Below, piece after piece: positions 1,022-54,099 of a stretch of 64,000 bases of DNA. The notes under the pieces were generated by a model that was given only the letters and a program-made list of their open reading frames with translations, was not told where the DNA came from and did no database searches. Source of the DNA: a virus; IMG/VR virus record IMGVR_UViG_3300025168_000036; one strand, given 5' to 3'. The translations under genes and the position numbers were made by a program. Numbering within the stretch: the first letter of the stretch is position 1; each line of letters begins with the position of its first letter.

Positions 1022-1477
1022 TCATAATAAATCTTCTTTTTTCATTAATACTATATTGTTTAATATTTCTAAGCCAGATAAGTCTCTAGCCATTTTGTTG
1101 TGCAAGTATACAACGCGAGTAATTCCTGCTTGCAGTATAAGCTTGGCACATTCTTTACAAGGTGCAAGTGTTACATATAGTGTTGCACCTTCACAGCTAG
1201 TACCATGTCTAGCACACTTAAGTATGGCATTAGCTTCCGCGTGTATTACTCTCCAATCTGTTTTTTCTTCTCCTGCACCTTCAATGCCATCTATTGGAGT
1301 TATAACTTCACATCTATTATCCATACCACTAGGCATACCATTGTACCCATCGCTAATAATCATCTTACCTTTAACAATAAGACAACCTACCTTAGCTCTA
1401 TTACAATGAGAAAGTTTGGCCCATTCAAGAGCCATTCTCATATAAGCCTTATCATATCTCCACTGTTTAGCTGGCAT
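1022..1477 (-). CDS. dCMP deaminase
   Basis: VGCLIV...GYNG, HAEANA and PCKEC zinc motifs. Confidence 0.95.
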   Translation of the reverse strand: MPAKQWRYDKAYMRMALEWAKLSHCNRAKVGCLIVKGKMIISDGYNGMPSGMDNRCEVITPIDGIEGAGEEKTDWRVIHAEANAILKCARHGTSCEGATLYVTLAPCKECAKLILQAGITRVVYLHNKMARDLSGLEILNNIVLMKKEDLL

Positions 1478-1721
1478 AGGTCTTGCTTTTATAAAATTTA
1501 TACAGGCTATTTAACTGCTTAAGGTAATAGGCAGGTGGAGTATAGTCATAATCAGCAATACAATGTTTAATACATTCAGTTAGATCAGATAATACAGTAT
1601 CATAAGTGGCATCTGAACTACCAGGGTCACCACATATGTCATCCATATTACTATTTGAACATACAGTTTCTATTAGATCTCTTAGACTGTATAGTCTACT
1701 TATATACTTATTCTTTTTCAT
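1467..1721 (-). CDS. hypothetical protein
   Basis: ORF in operon context. Confidence 0.55.
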   Translation of the reverse strand: MKKNKYISRLYSLRDLIETVCSNSNMDDICGDPGSSDATYDTVLSDLTECIKHCIADYDYTPPAYYLKQLNSLYKFYKSKTYAS

Positions 1722-45487: not shown

Positions 45488-45780
45488 TATTTTGTCTCCT
45501 TATAAATTGTTAAAATTTCATCTTCTCTACATACGATGAACTCTTCTCTATTAACTTCAAGTCTTTTAGCTGAAAATTTTGGATAGTATACTACATCGCC
45601 TACCTTACATTGCATATGACCTCTTTTTCCAGTATTTAGTAGTGGGCCGGGACCTACTGCTAATACTTCGCCTTTAAGTGATACTTCTGCATCAACTTCT
45701 GGCATAATTACTCCACCTGATGTCATTTCATCTGGTTCTAATCCTTTTAATACTACATTTCCTCCTGTTGGTGTAAACAT
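45487..45780 (-). CDS. groS: co-chaperonin GroES
   Basis: TSGGVIMP, GEVLAVGPG, KVGD.V. Confidence 0.93.
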   Translation of the reverse strand: MFTPTGGNVVLKGLEPDEMTSGGVIMPEVDAEVSLKGEVLAVGPGPLLNTGKRGHMQCKVGDVVYYPKFSAKRLEVNREEFIVCREDEILTIYKETK

Positions 45781-46499
45781 TATATTGCCTCCTTATCTTT
45801 AATTCTTAATTTATTTTCTATTTCATGTGAGCTTCTTACACATGATATTCCTAATTGGTCTTTCATTACTTCTGGTGTTGTGCAAGACTGGTTAAAGCTT
45901 GCAAAATCTGTTTTACTTGGGAACCTTCCACAACCTGCAAATAGACACCCAAATGCATTTGATAAATAATCTGCAGCTGCGTAGTCACACTTTCCTATTA
46001 AGTCACATCCTGGCTTGAAGCTTTTTGCAGCTTCAATTCCCATATCGATCATCTTCTCTCTTAATAGCCAATGTAAACCTACAATAAACTCTTCCTCGCA
46101 AAACTTAAGCCTTCTCATCATCTGTCCTCTAAGAGAATTAATATTTTGCTCAACTACGTATGTACATTCTCTTGACATTAAATTAAACAATTCAGGATTT
46201 TCGCTTTCAGATACTCTGTGCTTTTCCAGTTCAGATAGCGTTTTTATGGTTTTGTCGCGAAAGTCTGAGTTCTTCTCCATTAACTCATATACCTGAGTAT
46301 AAACCACATATGTTGGGTTTGGATTAACCTCATATTGCTTAAATTTAATTCCTACTCTAGCCCTTGAATGTTGATCATATTGGCAAATTGGTGTCCCTTT
46401 TACTCTATATGTTATCATACCAGAAGCCTGATGCCAATTCAAAATGTCTACTTCTAGACCTTTCACTCCACACTTTATTTCAATGTTATTAACTTTCAT
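45780..46499 (-). CDS. ThyX-fold protein B (keeps QxxRxR, lacks the SxR motif; Cys-rich tail)
   Basis: ITYRVKGTPI..YDQHSRAR and N..SL.....RR align by eye with ThyX. Confidence 0.6.
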   Translation of the reverse strand: MKVNNIEIKCGVKGLEVDILNWHQASGMITYRVKGTPICQYDQHSRARVGIKFKQYEVNPNPTYVVYTQVYELMEKNSDFRDKTIKTLSELEKHRVSESENPELFNLMSRECTYVVEQNINSLRGQMMRRLKFCEEEFIVGLHWLLREKMIDMGIEAAKSFKPGCDLIGKCDYAAADYLSNAFGCLFAGCGRFPSKTDFASFNQSCTTPEVMKDQLGISCVRSSHEIENKLRIKDKEAI

Positions 46500-47307
46500 A
46501 AAATAATTCTTTATCCTTTTTGCTTAAATCTTCAAATTTATATTCTCTTATCTTATGTAATACAACATCTGTATTTTCAAATATTACACTCAGATATAAA
46601 CCTATAAATGGGAATTGTTTTTCAACAACACTTACAAGTTCTTTATAGAGTATTGCCAATGACTGCTCTTTTACATTATCACCAAACTTTCCTGATGCAT
46701 TGAATCCTCTCATTGATACTAATGAAAGTAAATTTTGGCCAAAATGATATGAGTGTTGATAGCTTTGTGGTAAGAATGTTCTACCAGACTGCCAACTTGA
46801 TTGATCTTCATTTAATACATCTGCATATATTTGCTTTAAGTCATTAAATGTTTTCTTTTCTTCTGATGATAGTTTTCTTTTGCCTACAGTAATAATGTCT
46901 ACATCAGACTTATTATTGTCTCTGCATCCTATACTCATAAAACTTGTGAATGGGGTCTGAGTGTGGTAGTCAAATAGCCATCTTGGTACACCTCTTACTC
47001 TGAATATAAATTGTACCATTTCTCTTGCTTGTGGTAGTGTATTGTGAGTCAATACAGCTTTTACAACCTCAAACTTACCTTCAGGAGTTGTTTCTGGCCA
47101 TTTTTGCTTAAACTTATTGTCACCCCAAGTAGAAGTACTTGTCACAAACATTGACTTATAAGGATTTGTCATGTGGTCTTCTAATGTGACCTCAACCTCA
47201 TCAATCATATCGTGAAATTCAGTAACAACTGGTGGCCTCTCTTCTGGGAGAGTTCCCATAACTTTTCTTAGGTTTTCTACAACCTCGTAACTTAATTTAT
47301 CTTCCAT
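46489..47307 (-). CDS. ThyX-fold protein A (keeps xCRD and R..LP, lacks RHR)
   Basis: EMVQFIFRVRGVPR, SIGCRD and GRTFLPQ...QNL.SL align by eye with ThyX. Confidence 0.7.
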   Translation of the reverse strand: MEDKLSYEVVENLRKVMGTLPEERPPVVTEFHDMIDEVEVTLEDHMTNPYKSMFVTSTSTWGDNKFKQKWPETTPEGKFEVVKAVLTHNTLPQAREMVQFIFRVRGVPRWLFDYHTQTPFTSFMSIGCRDNNKSDVDIITVGKRKLSSEEKKTFNDLKQIYADVLNEDQSSWQSGRTFLPQSYQHSYHFGQNLLSLVSMRGFNASGKFGDNVKEQSLAILYKELVSVVEKQFPFIGLYLSVIFENTDVVLHKIREYKFEDLSKKDKELFYES

Positions 47308-47343: not shown

Positions 47344-48312
47344 TTAAATATAAAAATGTAACGAATCAAATTTTATATTTATTTTAATATTTTCTACTTT
47401 AGTATTTTTATCAAACCAGATTTTTATCATTTTGCATATAGATATAAAGTCATGGTTAAATAGCCCTACGTTTGAGGACCTAAAGTTTACACTTACATTT
47501 AATGTATTATTTCTAAGTAGAATATGAACATATGACAGGCACTCATCATCTGTAAATACAAATCTTCTACTATGTGAGTCTTCCTTCTTTCCATAGTATC
47601 CTGATAGCTCTGATTCTATCTTTTTTGTGAATTTAGCTAATTGGAATTTATAACTGTCAACTTCAAGCTGCATATAGTCATTTATATTCTCCAACCCTGT
47701 ATATAGATCTTTTGATGCCCAACTTTCCACATCGTCATAAGACATATCTAAATCCATCTTATAATTTATAAGCTCCTTAGTACCACCAACACTAGCTCCG
47801 TATTCCTGTAATGCAGTCATTGCTGTTCCTATTTGGTGCTCTGGGCTTAATAAAAATTCATTATACATTTCTATAATGCCATTAATTCTTTTTGCAATAG
47901 ATCCTGGATCATCCTCTCCATCTATTACCCAAAAGTTTCTATGCTTTTCAAATCTAATGCATAGATCTTTATATATTCTTGCCACATGCTTTATTGACGA
48001 CCAAGACTGGAATTCATCTCCCCTATTACAATATCTCCTATGCAACTCTGCCTCACTAATGTCAAAATAGAAAACTATATTGTCATTAAGATAAGATATA
48101 AACTCATGTTCTCTTTCTTCATTATTGTCGAATCTGTTATGTAGCATGCCGTAAGCCATTATTGACATCAAGCCTCTATCGTTTAAGAGGACGTCATAGT
48201 CGTTGCCAGATTGTATAATTTCCCAAACCTTTTGGTATTGAGTTGTCTTACCTGAACAGTCAGGTCCTTCAAATATCAATTGTAGTCTTTTATTCATCAT
48301 TAAACCTTTCAT
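47344..48312 (-). CDS. dNMP kinase fused to a ThyA/dCMP-hydroxymethylase-like domain
   Basis: EGPDCSGKTT and DR..SIMAY; C-terminal SRR..C...LLR..LN..VNFRSS.....HDF...SLHFY. Confidence 0.75.
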   Translation of the reverse strand: MKGLMMNKRLQLIFEGPDCSGKTTQYQKVWEIIQSGNDYDVLLNDRGLMSIMAYGMLHNRFDNNEEREHEFISYLNDNIVFYFDISEAELHRRYCNRGDEFQSWSSIKHVARIYKDLCIRFEKHRNFWVIDGEDDPGSIAKRINGIIEMYNEFLLSPEHQIGTAMTALQEYGASVGGTKELINYKMDLDMSYDDVESWASKDLYTGLENINDYMQLEVDSYKFQLAKFTKKIESELSGYYGKKEDSHSRRFVFTDDECLSYVHILLRNNTLNVSVNFRSSNVGLFNHDFISICKMIKIWFDKNTKVENIKINIKFDSLHFYI

Positions 48313-51891: not shown

Positions 51892-52242
51892 TTACATGCA
51901 ATGGTTCATCCACTTTCCGTAAAACTTAAGGTATTCTTTTTCCAGTCTGCCAAACGTTAGTGTCTTATAGTGCACACTTTCTAGCTTATCATTTGGGAGG
52001 TGTGTTGAAAGATAGTTATCTATTAAATTTTGCAAACCTTTTATATCATGATACTGTATGAGATTAGTGGGAAAGCAAAACATGAACTCTTTTGTGCCGT
52101 CTTCTCTATTTAGTATATAGCTCCAAAAGTCATCTATATATAATCTTGAATCTATATTACTCTCTACTTGTGATTCCCAAAATTTAATCTCAGCCTTTGC
52201 AGCTGGATTTTCATAGAAGCAGGTTGTTAATTTTACTTTCAT
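51892..52242 (-). CDS. hypothetical protein
   Basis: ORF inside the nucleotide-metabolism block. Confidence 0.55.
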   Translation of the reverse strand: MKVKLTTCFYENPAAKAEIKFWESQVESNIDSRLYIDDFWSYILNREDGTKEFMFCFPTNLIQYHDIKGLQNLIDNYLSTHLPNDKLESVHYKTLTFGRLEKEYLKFYGKWMNHCM

Positions 52243-53161
52243 GTTTTATACCTTTATTTAGTTTTCTATCTAGTGTCTCTTCTGTATATAAGCCAAAGTT
52301 TGGCTTTAAGTATACTTCAAATCCACTATCATTTAATTTATTTGCATTATTTATATCATCATCTATACAAAATGCAACCTGTTCGGGGTCAAAGTTATTT
52401 ATAATATACTTTTCCTTCTCTTCATCAAACACAATTGCATCATAGCATATACCATTGTCCTTAAGCCACTTAATTGTGTCTGAATATATTCTAAAATACT
52501 TTTTATATGGCCTTGCGGTAAGAAGTACAACACTATATTTCTTGCATGCGTCTTTCATAAACTGCTTTGCACCATCTAGCACATCTAATGTTGCTTTTAC
52601 ACCACATGTTCTATATTCAGATTTTATTCTATATTGTTCTTTTTTATCAACTTCTGATTTGAATTGACTTAGACTTTCATAGCCAGACCACTTTAAGAAT
52701 CCACCTGGCCAATCTGCAAGTACACCATCTATATCTATAAAAGCAATCTTTTTATCAGATGCCTTAATCTTTTTCATTACCTTTTCTTGGTTAAATTTAG
52801 CCTCTACAACTCTTGATTTGTCCATAAACTTTTCATATAAGTCATCTACACTAAAGCCATTAAGTTGAATTATTCCAAATAGATATTTTAATACATCAAC
52901 ACATTCCTCTAATACATTATCATTTACATCTTCAGTCTTTTTTGATGTGTGCATCTTCCAATCTATTTCATCTAGTACTTCATATACTTCCTTAGATAAT
53001 GCTAGAACATATTCTTTATTCCATTTTATCTTTAATTCCTTATCATTAACGACATCATCTATTGTAAGATTGTGTTTATCTTTAAAGAACTTCTCTGTAA
53101 AGCTCTTTTGTAATTCGAAAATTTCTTTTAATTTATCTTTCATCTTAATTCCTTTGTCCAT
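52211..53161 (-). CDS. all-alpha dNTP pyrophosphatase (dimeric dUTPase/dCTPase-like) fused to a HAD 5'-nucleotidase-like domain
   Basis: EVYEVLDEIDWK, EECVDVLKY; DIDGVLAD, LTAR, IDD. Confidence 0.8.
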   Translation of the reverse strand: MDKGIKMKDKLKEIFELQKSFTEKFFKDKHNLTIDDVVNDKELKIKWNKEYVLALSKEVYEVLDEIDWKMHTSKKTEDVNDNVLEECVDVLKYLFGIIQLNGFSVDDLYEKFMDKSRVVEAKFNQEKVMKKIKASDKKIAFIDIDGVLADWPGGFLKWSGYESLSQFKSEVDKKEQYRIKSEYRTCGVKATLDVLDGAKQFMKDACKKYSVVLLTARPYKKYFRIYSDTIKWLKDNGICYDAIVFDEEKEKYIINNFDPEQVAFCIDDDINNANKLNDSGFEVYLKPNFGLYTEETLDRKLNKGIKHESKINNLLL

Positions 53162-54099
53162 CCTAGAACTCTATCTAGTACCTCATTTGCCTTTACCTTA
53201 TGATTCCATTGTGCGAATCTACCTAACATATATATTTTGTCTATCTTATCTAGATTAATACTATTTTGAATTTGGAATGGCAAGCCTTCAAATTTATGTA
53301 TTATAGGATAAGGTGGAGTTATTGGCTCCACAGACTCATATACCATATAATTATTAAAGTATGTCTTTCTTGACCAGCCTTCTGTGTGACCATAAATATA
53401 GTCAAACTTGGATAGCTCACCTTTATTTGTCTGGTAGAAACATTTTGGTAGTGTTGTAAGATCATATTTATCTAGCTCATCTCCATCCCATATTGAACCA
53501 AGTGGAGATTCCTTAGTAAGAAGCTTTAGATTAAGTGTGTTTATAACAACATTATAGCTTCTACACATTGAAGGTCCTGCACCATCCTTTGCATATATGT
53601 ATCCGTGTGAGTCTACCTTTGTAATTCTTTCTCTTTTAAGCTGACCTCTATCAATATCAATTATTTTTAATAGTGTTTCAAATAAGAATTTATAGCTATC
53701 CTCACCCATGTCTTCTATTTCTAGGTGCTGTATTTCATTCTTGCCTTCAGATAGGTAGCTTGACTCAGACTTACTTTTTCCTCTAGTAAGTTTTGTATAC
53801 TTATTCTTAAAACCTGGAGGTAGGACTACGTCTCTTTTTCCATCTTCCTCATACCCAACAATTGCTACAACTGTTTTTATTCTATATGAATGCAAACCTG
53901 CATCATTTAATACACTTCTAACGAATTTTTCTGAATTTTCTGTTTTTTGGATTAATCTAGGTCCTGGAATAAACGGTAAATTTAACTGGCCTAGTGGATT
54001 TTCATCATAAACAGCATATTCTGGAAAGTAGTATCCAGCTATTAAACCTGCCGGACCTCCACCTAATATACAACCTTGTTTCATTTTATTTTCTTTCAT
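53140..54099 (-). CDS. FAD-dependent oxidoreductase (Glf-like architecture)
   Basis: GGGPAG dinucleotide-binding motif, PGPRL, C-terminal LGRFAQW. Confidence 0.7.
   Translation of the reverse strand: MKENKMKQGCILGGGPAGLIAGYYFPEYAVYDENPLGQLNLPFIPGPRLIQKTENSEKFVRSVLNDAGLHSYRIKTVVAIVGYEEDGKRDVVLPPGFKNKYTKLTRGKSKSESSYLSEGKNEIQHLEIEDMGEDSYKFLFETLLKIIDIDRGQLKRERITKVDSHGYIYAKDGAGPSMCRSYNVVINTLNLKLLTKESPLGSIWDGDELDKYDLTTLPKCFYQTNKGELSKFDYIYGHTEGWSRKTYFNNYMVYESVEPITPPYPIIHKFEGLPFQIQNSINLDKIDKIYMLGRFAQWNHKVKANEVLDRVLGWTKELR

What the first reader, a model, noticed from the sequence alone, without database searches (positions are those of the whole stretch)
45780..47307. Tandem ThyX paralogues with complementary loss of active-site residues: a probable obligate heteromer
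Seen, by eye-alignment to T. maritima ThyX: the 272-aa protein keeps the R90 and R147 equivalents (IGCRD, GRTFLP) but RHR has become TQT. The 239-aa protein keeps the Q75/R78/R80 equivalents (DQHSRAR) and a basic residue at R174 (MMRR) but has lost the SxR and R..LP motifs. Established (from memory of ThyX structures): the dUMP site is composite, with S88/R90/R147 from one subunit and Q75/R78/R174 from another. The two losses follow that split. Inference: after duplication each copy kept half the site, giving an A2B2 enzyme. The Ser88 region reads Gly-Cys, Asp occupies the R74 and Y91 positions, and there is a Cys-rich tail, all hinting at changed chemistry or substrate.
Basis: partly seen in the sequence, partly recalled or inferred. 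Interest (0 to 1): 0.85.

Follow-up and report, generated by a model that had tools for sequence, protein, structure and literature searches.

The report
Two-gene split-site ThyX enzyme in phages
Two overlapping phage genes are diverged copies of one flavin-dependent thymidylate-synthase-like gene, and each has kept exactly the active-site residues the other has lost, so they very probably work only as a mixed complex, a form not described for this enzyme family.

Summary
Genes A (46489-47307, minus strand, 272 aa) and B (45780-46499, minus strand, 239 aa) both fold as ThyX: Z is 15.1 for A and 15.3 for B against solved ThyX, and the next unrelated fold scores below 5.

Uncultured phages also carry a single-gene relative of about 330 aa, called the C clade here. 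It has every motif. A and B each keep alternate segments of it.

Each catalytic arginine that is invariant or nearly so in the C clade is invariant in exactly one paralogue. A keeps the equivalents of M. tuberculosis ThyX R87, R107 and R172. B keeps the equivalents of R95, R97 and R199, plus T. maritima Q75. For five of these residues, this matches the published division of the dUMP site between subunits.

A tree places both paralogues, on long stems, inside one C subclade. In all 44 loci with room downstream, A is followed by B, and the genes usually overlap.

The mixed complex, probably A2B2 with two live sites, is inferred and not shown.

The Gly, Asp and Cys-module oddities are ancestral to the whole C clade. 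The product is open: dTMP, or another C5-modified uracil nucleotide. Some related phages also carry a canonical ThyX or ThyA.

First readers of this scan noted the same kind of pair on two other genomes.

The parts
46489..47307 (-). Gene A, 272 aa. A ThyX-fold subunit that keeps the phosphate and uracil-O4 side of the nucleotide site (R109, G127, R129, D130, R176) and the N-terminal helical region (Q93, E96). It has lost the RHR-type motif (T116-Q117-T118) and the R174 equivalent, and it has no Cys module.
   Evidence: ORF. Pfam Thy1 21.2 bits, below cut-off. AF2 pLDDT 87.7. Foldseek 8e-8. Z 15.1, rmsd 3.2, 203 aligned to 3hzg_A. 115 homologues. Residue table.
45780..46499 (-). Gene B, 239 aa. 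A ThyX-fold subunit that keeps the flavin, 3'-OH and uracil-N3 side (Q43, R46, A47, R48, R130), the acidic run E135-E137 and the Cys module (C165, C171, C190, C206 invariant). It has an internal deletion of the two helices after the N-terminal hairpin. It has lost the equivalents of M. tuberculosis R87 and T. maritima S88, R90 and R147.
   Evidence: ORF. No Pfam or PHROG hit. AF2 pLDDT 88.6. Foldseek hits all ThyX. Z 15.3, rmsd 2.7, 152 aligned to 3fnn, next unrelated Z 4.4. 140 homologues. The profile reaches Thy1-positive proteins of about 330 aa. Residue table.
46489..46518 (-). The A-B junction. There is an 11-nt overlap of A's stop with B's start, and a purine-rich AAGGA lies about 15 nt upstream of B's ATG. 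This suits translational coupling.
   Evidence: Sequence read. Across 44 loci, 33 overlap by 4-47 nt, 10 have gaps of 0-20 nt and one carries a 646-nt mobile insert.
47344..48312 (-). Context only: the upstream gene, a thymidylate-kinase-like domain fused to a minimal ThyA-like domain. Homologues of both domains recur beside the A-B pair and beside its single-gene relatives.
   Evidence: Pfam Thymidylate_kin 24.5 bits, below cut-off. PHROG thymidylate kinase. Recurrence 31-32 of 44 A-B loci and 15-23 of 36 C-clade loci. The reading of the ThyA-like domain comes from note e1-5764008 and was not tested here.

Best explanation
A and B are the two subunits of one ThyX-family flavoenzyme that can be active only as a mixed oligomer. 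The most likely form is a pseudo-D2 A2B2 tetramer.

An ancestral single gene of about 330 aa was duplicated in tandem. It was a divergent ThyX with an RAR motif, a Gly-x-Arg-Asp loop and a Cys-rich module. Each copy then lost the residues that the other kept.

In canonical ThyX each site is built from three subunits. One gives the RHR motif and the late Arg, which contact the flavin, the sugar 3'-OH and uracil N3/O2. Another gives the phosphate-binding arginines and the Ser-x-Arg loop. A third gives contacts from the N-terminal helical region to the FAD phosphates.

Here B can play only the first role, and A only the second and third. A tetramer would therefore have two live sites, each made of one B and two A chains, and two dead sites. 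The overlapping genes would give roughly equal amounts of the two chains.

Both arginines that read the uracil edge are kept, so the substrate is most likely a uracil nucleotide, by default dUMP. The product is dTMP or another C5-modified dUMP. This part is open.

Shown: folds, homology, complementary conservation, co-inheritance. Inferred: assembly, stoichiometry, substrate, product.
For: Fold: A has Z 15.1 and B has Z 15.3 against solved ThyX, with nothing else above Z 5.

Complete relatives: the B profile finds proteins of about 315-360 aa that pass the Pfam Thy1 cut-off. 35 such loci carry a single ORF that matches both the A and the B profile. The C-clade profile hits M. tuberculosis and T. 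maritima ThyX at 1e-8 to 2e-7 with residue alignments.

Mosaic: along the 325-aa L044 protein, identity alternates between A and B. Examples are 12/15 against 1/11 in the Gly-x-Arg-Asp loop, 1/15 against 12/15 after the late Arg, and 13/15 for B in the Cys module, which A lacks.

Residues: the R87, G(S88), R90, D(Y91) and R147 equivalents are invariant in A (41/41) and lost in B. The Q75, R78, R80 and R174 equivalents are invariant in B (41/41) and lost in A. In the C clade each of these is kept in at least 21 of 24 sequences.

Subunit split: the partition equals the published one, R95 and R199 from one chain and R87, S105 and R107 from another (PMC6514825). Roles of the residues: PMC9571937; PMC12004180.

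Tree: A (100/100) and B (100/99) arise on long stems (1.65 and 1.0) from one polytomy with four C-clade genes, inside a 98/97 clade.

Linkage: A is followed by B in 44 of 44 loci with room downstream. 33 pairs overlap. Pairwise identities of A and B correlate at r = 0.96 over 35 distinct pairs.
Against: There is no direct evidence of assembly.

No fused A-B protein was found among the representatives, so there is no Rosetta-stone support.

The 'dead' positions are themselves conserved within each family, for example D113 and H115 in A. Each chain may therefore have gained a role of its own.

The whole clade lacks several canonical ThyX residues: the equivalents of H53, H79, S88, Y91 and R165. 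It also falls below the NCBIfam thyX equivalog cut-off, so ThyX-type chemistry itself is not assured.

Some related phages also carry a canonical ThyX or ThyA. That speaks against a plain dTMP-synthase role.

The chain origin of Q75 and R147 rests on memory.
Confidence: 0.75

Rival explanations
1. A and B have separated into two independent proteins. Each forms its own homo-oligomer with a new function that no longer needs a ThyX-type nucleotide and flavin site, for example a nucleotide-binding regulator (A) and a flavin or metal redox protein (B).
For: Positions at the lost motifs are conserved within each family, for example D113 and H115 in A and F53 in B. Both stems are long, as expected after a change of function. 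No fusion protein was found.
Against: The residues kept invariant are precisely the two halves of one known composite site. Independent new functions would not be expected to preserve that partition. The pair is never separated in 44 loci and evolves in step.
Confidence: 0.12
2. Only one chain matters catalytically. The other is a scaffold or activating pseudoenzyme, as in the dead paralogues that activate trypanosomatid deoxyhypusine synthase.
For: Such systems exist (PMC3663545, abstract seen). B carries the flavin-binding motif and the Cys module and might hold the redox chemistry.
Against: Neither chain has a full set of site residues, so neither could form a complete site as a homo-oligomer. 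Both sets of catalytic arginines are invariant. This is mutual dependence, not one live and one dead chain.
Confidence: 0.08
3. It is an artefact: one ThyX gene split by a frameshift or an assembly error.
For: The genes overlap, and each alone looks incomplete by motif.
Against: Each product spans the ThyX core on its own, with a duplicated core strand and helix. The pair recurs in 35 distinct sequence versions from many samples, with varying junctions.
Confidence: 0.01

Closest known systems
Canonical homotetrameric ThyX / flavin-dependent thymidylate synthase (T. maritima TM0449, PDB 1O26; M. tuberculosis ThyX, PDB 3GWC)
   Same: Same fold for both chains (Z about 15). The arginines that bind the dUMP phosphate and read the uracil edge, and two arginines of the RHR motif, are all present across the pair. 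The site is built between subunits.
   Different: The site residues are shared out over two different polypeptides rather than repeated in four identical ones. RHR reads RAR. The Ser88 position is Gly and the Tyr91 and Arg74 positions are Asp. The His53 and Arg165 equivalents are absent. B carries a Cys-rich module. Neither chain reaches the Pfam or NCBIfam cut-offs.
Single-gene, Cys-module ThyX-like clade of uncultured phages, about 315-360 aa (for example L044:6004-6981, P0239, P0241); unnamed and uncharacterised
   Same: Direct evolutionary parent. It has the same unusual residues (RAR, Gly-x-Arg-Asp, Cys module, N-terminal extension, C-terminal tail) and the same gene neighbourhood of kinase, minimal ThyA-like domain, NTP pyrophosphatase-nucleotidase, flavoprotein-like gene and DnaE.
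   Different: It is one gene with all motifs in one chain, presumably a homo-oligomer. A and B each keep alternate segments of it.
PolB, the ThyX paralogue of polyoxin biosynthesis (UMP/dUMP methylase, PDB 4P5A/4P5B)
   Same: A ThyX-fold paralogue that has left plain dTMP synthesis. It is among the best structural matches of A.
   Different: PolB keeps a complete site in one chain. Its novelty is in substrate, not in subunit composition.
Heteromers of a live and a degenerate paralogue, such as trypanosomatid deoxyhypusine synthase (PMC3663545)
   Same: Gene duplication has made a homo-oligomeric enzyme depend on two paralogous chains.
   Different: In those cases one chain is impaired and the other dead. 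Here the loss is reciprocal, so each chain supplies half of every live site. The enzyme family is unrelated.

Membership tests
ThyX / Thy1 (Pfam PF02511) | Sequence score over the curated Pfam cut-off (24.8 bits) | tested here: not met
   Window A scores 21.2 bits and window B has no hit. Orthologues of A in other phages score 23-36 bits, some above and some below the cut-off. The single-gene parent clade passes at 46-70 bits.
ThyX / Thy1 (Pfam PF02511) | ThyX fold | tested here: met
   A: Z 15.1, rmsd 3.2, 203 aligned (3hzg_A), next unrelated Z 2.7. B: Z 15.3, rmsd 2.7, 152 aligned (3fnn), next unrelated Z 4.4.
ThyX / Thy1 (Pfam PF02511) | ThyX signature RHR-x7-S-x-R within one polypeptide | tested here: not met
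   A has T-Q-T in place of RHR but keeps G-x-R. B has R-A-R but no S-x-R. The signature exists only across the pair.
FAD-dependent thymidylate synthase, NCBIfam TIGR02170 (equivalog) | Score over the equivalog cut-off (87.9 bits) | tested here: not met
   A and B have no hit. The single-gene parents score 31.5 and 46.5 bits. A canonical phage ThyX (P0299) scores 197.5.
FAD-dependent thymidylate synthase (function) | Binds FAD and methylates dUMP with methylene-tetrahydrofolate and NADPH; complements thyA | not testable with these tools
   Only indirect evidence is available. The uracil-edge and phosphate arginines are kept. The His53, His79, Tyr91 and Arg165 equivalents are absent.
FAD-dependent thymidylate synthase (function) | Is the genome's thymidylate synthase (no other ThyA or ThyX present) | tested here: inconclusive
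   This covers seven records that are complete or nearly so. Four have no other thymidylate synthase: G003, G008, G016, G017. Three have a canonical ThyX or ThyA as well: G005, G006, G019. In the fragment G012 a canonical ThyX is also present.
Cys-module ThyX-like clade of uncultured phages (unnamed) | Nested in the clade on a tree, and matched by the clade's profile | tested here: met
   A and B branch inside a 98/97-supported clade next to L044, P0239, P0244 and P0272. Single C-clade ORFs match the A profile at 1e-31 to 1e-70 and the B profile at 1e-15 to 1e-59.
Obligate heteromer with a composite active site | Physical co-assembly, and activity only with both chains | not testable with these tools
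   It is supported only by reciprocal conservation, strict adjacency and overlap and co-evolution at r = 0.96.

The most novel reading that the evidence does not exclude
The whole clade, meaning the single-gene form and its two-gene derivative, is not a thymidylate synthase. It is a ThyX-derived enzyme that makes a different C5-modified uracil nucleotide, for example by releasing the methylene intermediate as a hydroxymethyl product. It may use its Cys module as a metal or redox centre. It would work with the neighbouring minimal ThyA-like/kinase fusion, the NTP pyrophosphatase-nucleotidase fusion, the flavoprotein-like gene and the phage's own DnaE as a cassette that puts a non-canonical pyrimidine into phage DNA.
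Probability: 0.3. Interest if true: 0.88.

Novelty: new variant of a known kind. Interest (0 to 1): 0.72.

Why it matters
The papers I could search describe ThyX only as a homotetramer whose sites lie between identical chains. A natural form in which the two sides of the site sit on different polypeptides would be the first heteromeric member.

It would be a clean natural experiment on which chain contributes what, because each half-site can be mutated separately. It would also be an unusually legible case of complementary degeneration after duplication: the intact parent gene still exists in sister phages.

It also flags a large, uncharacterised, phage-only branch of the ThyX family with altered catalytic residues and a Cys-rich module. 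That branch sits in a conserved nucleotide-metabolism cassette next to the phage polymerase, and its chemistry may not be thymidylate synthesis.

Tried and rejected
- Sequence searches of A and B against cultured phage genomes found nothing.
- Profiles of A and of B against solved-structure sequences found nothing useful.
- A direct profile-profile comparison of A with B gave only an 18-column match at the core strand and helix, probability under 1%. The homology of the two had to be shown through the single-gene clade and through folds.
- No whole genome is held for the window. The question of whether this is the only thymidylate synthase was therefore asked of related virus records.
- In the 64-kb window, simple searches with a canonical ThyX and a ThyA found nothing. 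A dCMP-deaminase-like ORF was found.
- A frameshifted single gene was rejected.
- Fused A-B proteins were looked for among the long hits of the B profile. All of those were intein-bearing or extended single-gene forms.
- The flavoprotein-like neighbour gave no PDB sequence match.

Full report
WHAT IS THERE. The window looks like a large AT-rich phage. GC is about 0.33, and the genes examined in 42-58 kb lie on the minus strand. The finding covers two ORFs exactly. A is 46489-47307 (272 aa). B is 45780-46499 (239 aa). They overlap by 11 nt, so that B's ATG lies inside A's last codons, and a purine-rich AAGGA lies about 15 nt upstream.

Upstream lie a kinase fused to a ThyA-like domain, a split DnaE, an NTP-pyrophosphatase/5'-nucleotidase fusion, an unnamed 319-aa gene, a CysK-like gene and ribonucleotide reductase. 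Downstream lie GroES and GroEL.

ARE THEY ThyX? By sequence, barely. A scores 21.2 bits against Pfam Thy1 (cut-off 24.8). B matches nothing in Pfam, PHROGs or NCBIfam.

By structure, yes. Both AlphaFold models are confident, with pLDDT 87.7 and 88.6. All their top matches among solved structures are ThyX or its paralogue PolB. A has Z 15.1 (rmsd 3.2, 203 aligned, 3hzg_A), with the next unrelated chain at Z 2.7. B has Z 15.3 (rmsd 2.7, 152 aligned, 3fnn), with the next unrelated chain at Z 4.4. A protein-language-model look-up also places B among Thy1 clusters.

THE KEY FINDING: AN INTACT PARENT. Each protein has more than 100 metagenomic homologues, largely marine. An exhaustive profile search with the B family reached proteins of about 315-360 aa that pass the Pfam Thy1 cut-off. 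Some of them carry inteins.

Aligned with B, and then with A, these proteins turn out to be complete. I call them the C clade. They have A's N-terminal extension and helices, B's Q-x-x-R-A-R motif, A's Gly-x-Arg-Asp loop, A's Arg-x-x-Leu-Pro element, B's late Arg followed by an acidic run, B's Cys-rich module and A's C-terminal tail.

The C-clade profile hits M. tuberculosis ThyX at 1.2e-8 and T. maritima ThyX at about 2e-7. The printed alignments fix the residue equivalences.

Along the 325-aa L044 protein, identity alternates between the paralogues. A leads over residues 1-105. B leads over 106-120 (9/15 against 4/14). A leads over 121-135 (12/15 against 1/11). B leads over 136-165. A leads over 166-195. 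B leads over 196-225 (18/30 against 5/30). B alone covers 241-300, where A has a deletion. A leads in the tail.

In 35 further virus loci the C-clade gene is a single ORF that matches both the A profile and the B profile.

RESIDUE-LEVEL COMPLEMENTARITY. This compares 41 sequences of each family and 24 of the C clade.
- M. tuberculosis R87 equivalent: R 24/24 in C, R 41/41 in A, Ile/Val/Leu in B.
- T. maritima Q75, R78 and R80: kept in 23-24 of 24 C sequences, 41/41 in B, and replaced in A by Tyr/His, Thr/Ala and Val/Thr.
- S88 position: Gly 23/24 in C, 41/41 in A, variable in B.
- R90: R or K in 21/24 of C, R 41/41 in A, Ser/Ala in B.
- Y91 position: Asp 22/24 in C, 41/41 in A, variable in B.
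- R147: R 24/24 in C, 41/41 in A, deleted in B.
- R174: R 24/24 in C, 41/41 in B, variable or gapped in A.
- E58 equivalent: invariant in C and A. The surrounding two helices are deleted in B.

HOW THIS MAPS ONTO THE KNOWN SITE. A review of the M. tuberculosis and H. pylori structures states that ThyX is a homotetramer with each site made by three chains (PMC6514825).
- The RHR motif and R199 (T. maritima R174) come from one chain.
- R87, S105, R107 and the lid Tyr108 come from another.
- Ser71 and Arg190 come from a third and contact the FAD phosphates.

Other papers give the roles of these residues. R87 and R172 hold the phosphate. R199 and R107 read the uracil edge. R95 and Q103 contact the 3'-OH.

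The phage partition follows this split. B can supply only the first role. A can supply the second, and A alone keeps the helical region that holds the third-role Ser71 equivalent (Q93).

A pseudo-D2 A2B2 tetramer would then have two live sites, each made of one B and two A chains, and two dead ones. This geometry is my inference. That R147 and Q75 belong to the chains assumed rests on memory, not on a paper I could read.

ORIGIN. I built a maximum-likelihood tree on the 155 columns shared by A, B and C, rooted on a Pseudomonas phage ThyX.
- A is one clade (100/100, stem 1.65).
- B is one clade (100/99, stem 1.0).
- Both leave one unresolved node together with L044, P0239, P0244 and P0272 (95/64), inside a 98/97-supported clade.

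This fits one tandem duplication of an L044-like gene followed by fast divergence of both copies. The node is a polytomy and both stems are long, so a sister relation of A and B is compatible with the tree but not proven by it.

LINKAGE. In all 44 loci with room downstream, A is followed by B on the same strand. These loci come from IMG/VR, ENA, JGI and Logan, plus the window itself, and hold 35 distinct sequence pairs. 33 junctions overlap by 4-47 nt and 10 have gaps of 0-20 nt. One carries a 646-nt insert that encodes a GIY-YIG-like ORF.

Pairwise identities of A and of B across the 35 pairs correlate at r = 0.96. Mean identities are similar, 0.63 and 0.61. The two genes are therefore inherited as a unit under similar constraint. 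No fused A-B protein turned up.

WHAT DOES IT MAKE? Both arginines that read the deprotonated uracil edge are kept, as are both phosphate arginines. A uracil nucleotide, by default dUMP, is therefore the likely substrate. This is an inference.

Several points speak for dTMP synthesis.
- The setting is a T4-like set of nucleotide genes: reductase, kinase and NTP pyrophosphatase, plus a dCMP-deaminase-like ORF at 1025-1510.
- Four of seven complete or nearly complete related genomes have no other ThyA or ThyX.

Several points speak against it.
- The clade lacks the His53, His79, Ser88, Tyr91 and Arg165 equivalents.
- It fails the NCBIfam equivalog cut-off.
- Three complete genomes also carry a canonical enzyme. 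G005 has a ThyA (267 bits). G006 has a canonical ThyX (233 bits) with a dCMP deaminase and a thymidylate kinase, 2 kb from the C-clade gene. G019 has a ThyX (149 bits) directly adjacent.

The clade also travels with a recurrent set of neighbours. These are a kinase, a minimal ThyA-like domain, an NTP pyrophosphatase, a 5'-nucleotidase, a flavoprotein-like gene and DnaE. That would also suit a base-replacement pathway.

I put dTMP at a little under half, given the heteromer.

COMPARISON WITH WHAT IS KNOWN. The papers I could search describe ThyX as homotetrameric and name PolB as the known diverged paralogue. I found no heteromeric ThyX. The library is incomplete, so this is absence within what was searched.

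But they predate the split and mark the whole C clade.

EARLIER NOTES OF THIS SCAN. First readers recorded what look like pairs of the same kind on two other genomes (e1-5764728, e1-5355070). They recorded a different short ThyX split on a third (e1-3309210). None of these had been checked.

VERDICT. The reading of duplication plus complementary loss is supported by independent lines of evidence. The obligate mixed complex is likely, at about 0.75, but not demonstrated. The product is undetermined. This is a new variant of a known enzyme kind.

Noticed in passing
L037:6801-7421: A 646-nt insert between A and B in one virus contig encodes a 207-aa ORF with GIY-YIG-like motifs. It is probably a homing endonuclease that landed in the junction without separating the pair.
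   Followed up: partly
P0245, P0251, P0256, P0257, P0276, P0285: Several single-gene C-clade ThyX-like proteins of 480-717 aa carry inteins (Intein_splicing, Hint and LAGLIDADG hits), inserted at more than one position.
   Followed up: partly
L083:1296-8972 (a complete 163-kb phage record): One cluster holds, in order: a canonical ThyX, a dCMP deaminase, a thymidylate kinase, the C-clade ThyX-like gene, a homologue of the window's 319-aa gene, an NTP-pyrophosphatase/nucleotidase homologue, and a DnaE with an N-terminal UDG-family domain.
   Followed up: partly
window 53140-54099 (-): A 319-aa gene with no Pfam, PHROG or PDB sequence match. Homologues sit beside the A-B pair or C-clade genes in at least 24 of 80 loci. 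One homologue (L044:4335-5204) and several Atlas clusters show weak FAD/NAD(P) Rossmann signals. It could be a redox partner.
   Followed up: partly
window 52211-53161 (-): A fusion of a dUTPase_2/MazG-type NTP pyrophosphatase with an NT5C-type 5'-deoxynucleotidase. It is the most constant neighbour of C-clade genes (20-23 of 36 loci). Its specificity would tell which canonical nucleotide, if any, is removed.
   Followed up: partly
L001:7449-7970, L028:5477-5998, L036:5469-5954: In many loci a free-standing minimal ThyA-like ORF of about 170 aa lies directly upstream of A. In the window it is fused to the kinase. It was found near 31 of 44 A-B loci by iterative search.
   Followed up: partly
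G019 (record of L074), 78370-79657: A 219-aa ThyX (149 bits) lies directly next to the 344-aa C-clade gene in a complete 81-kb phage record. This is either a second two-gene arrangement or two distinct enzymes.
   Followed up: no
L050:373-1290 (Pseudomonas phage R12, Pbunavirus): The annotated ThyX of Pbunaviruses (305 aa) reads R-T-R in place of RHR and has part of the Cys-containing C-terminal module. It may be a cultured, tractable outlier related to the C clade.
   Followed up: no
BFVD entries A0A6G6XK98 and A0A6G6XKC7: Gordonia phage Skog has two separate 'ThyX-like thymidylate synthase' entries, of 372 and 185 aa. This may be another multi-gene ThyX.
   Followed up: no
P0280: A 452-aa protein matches the Cys-module part of the B profile eight times in a row, so the Cys module can occur as a repeat on its own.
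   Followed up: no
window 1025-1510 (-): A dCMP-deaminase-like ORF (phmmer 3.6e-10 to the deaminase of L083). The phage probably makes dUMP itself.
   Followed up: no
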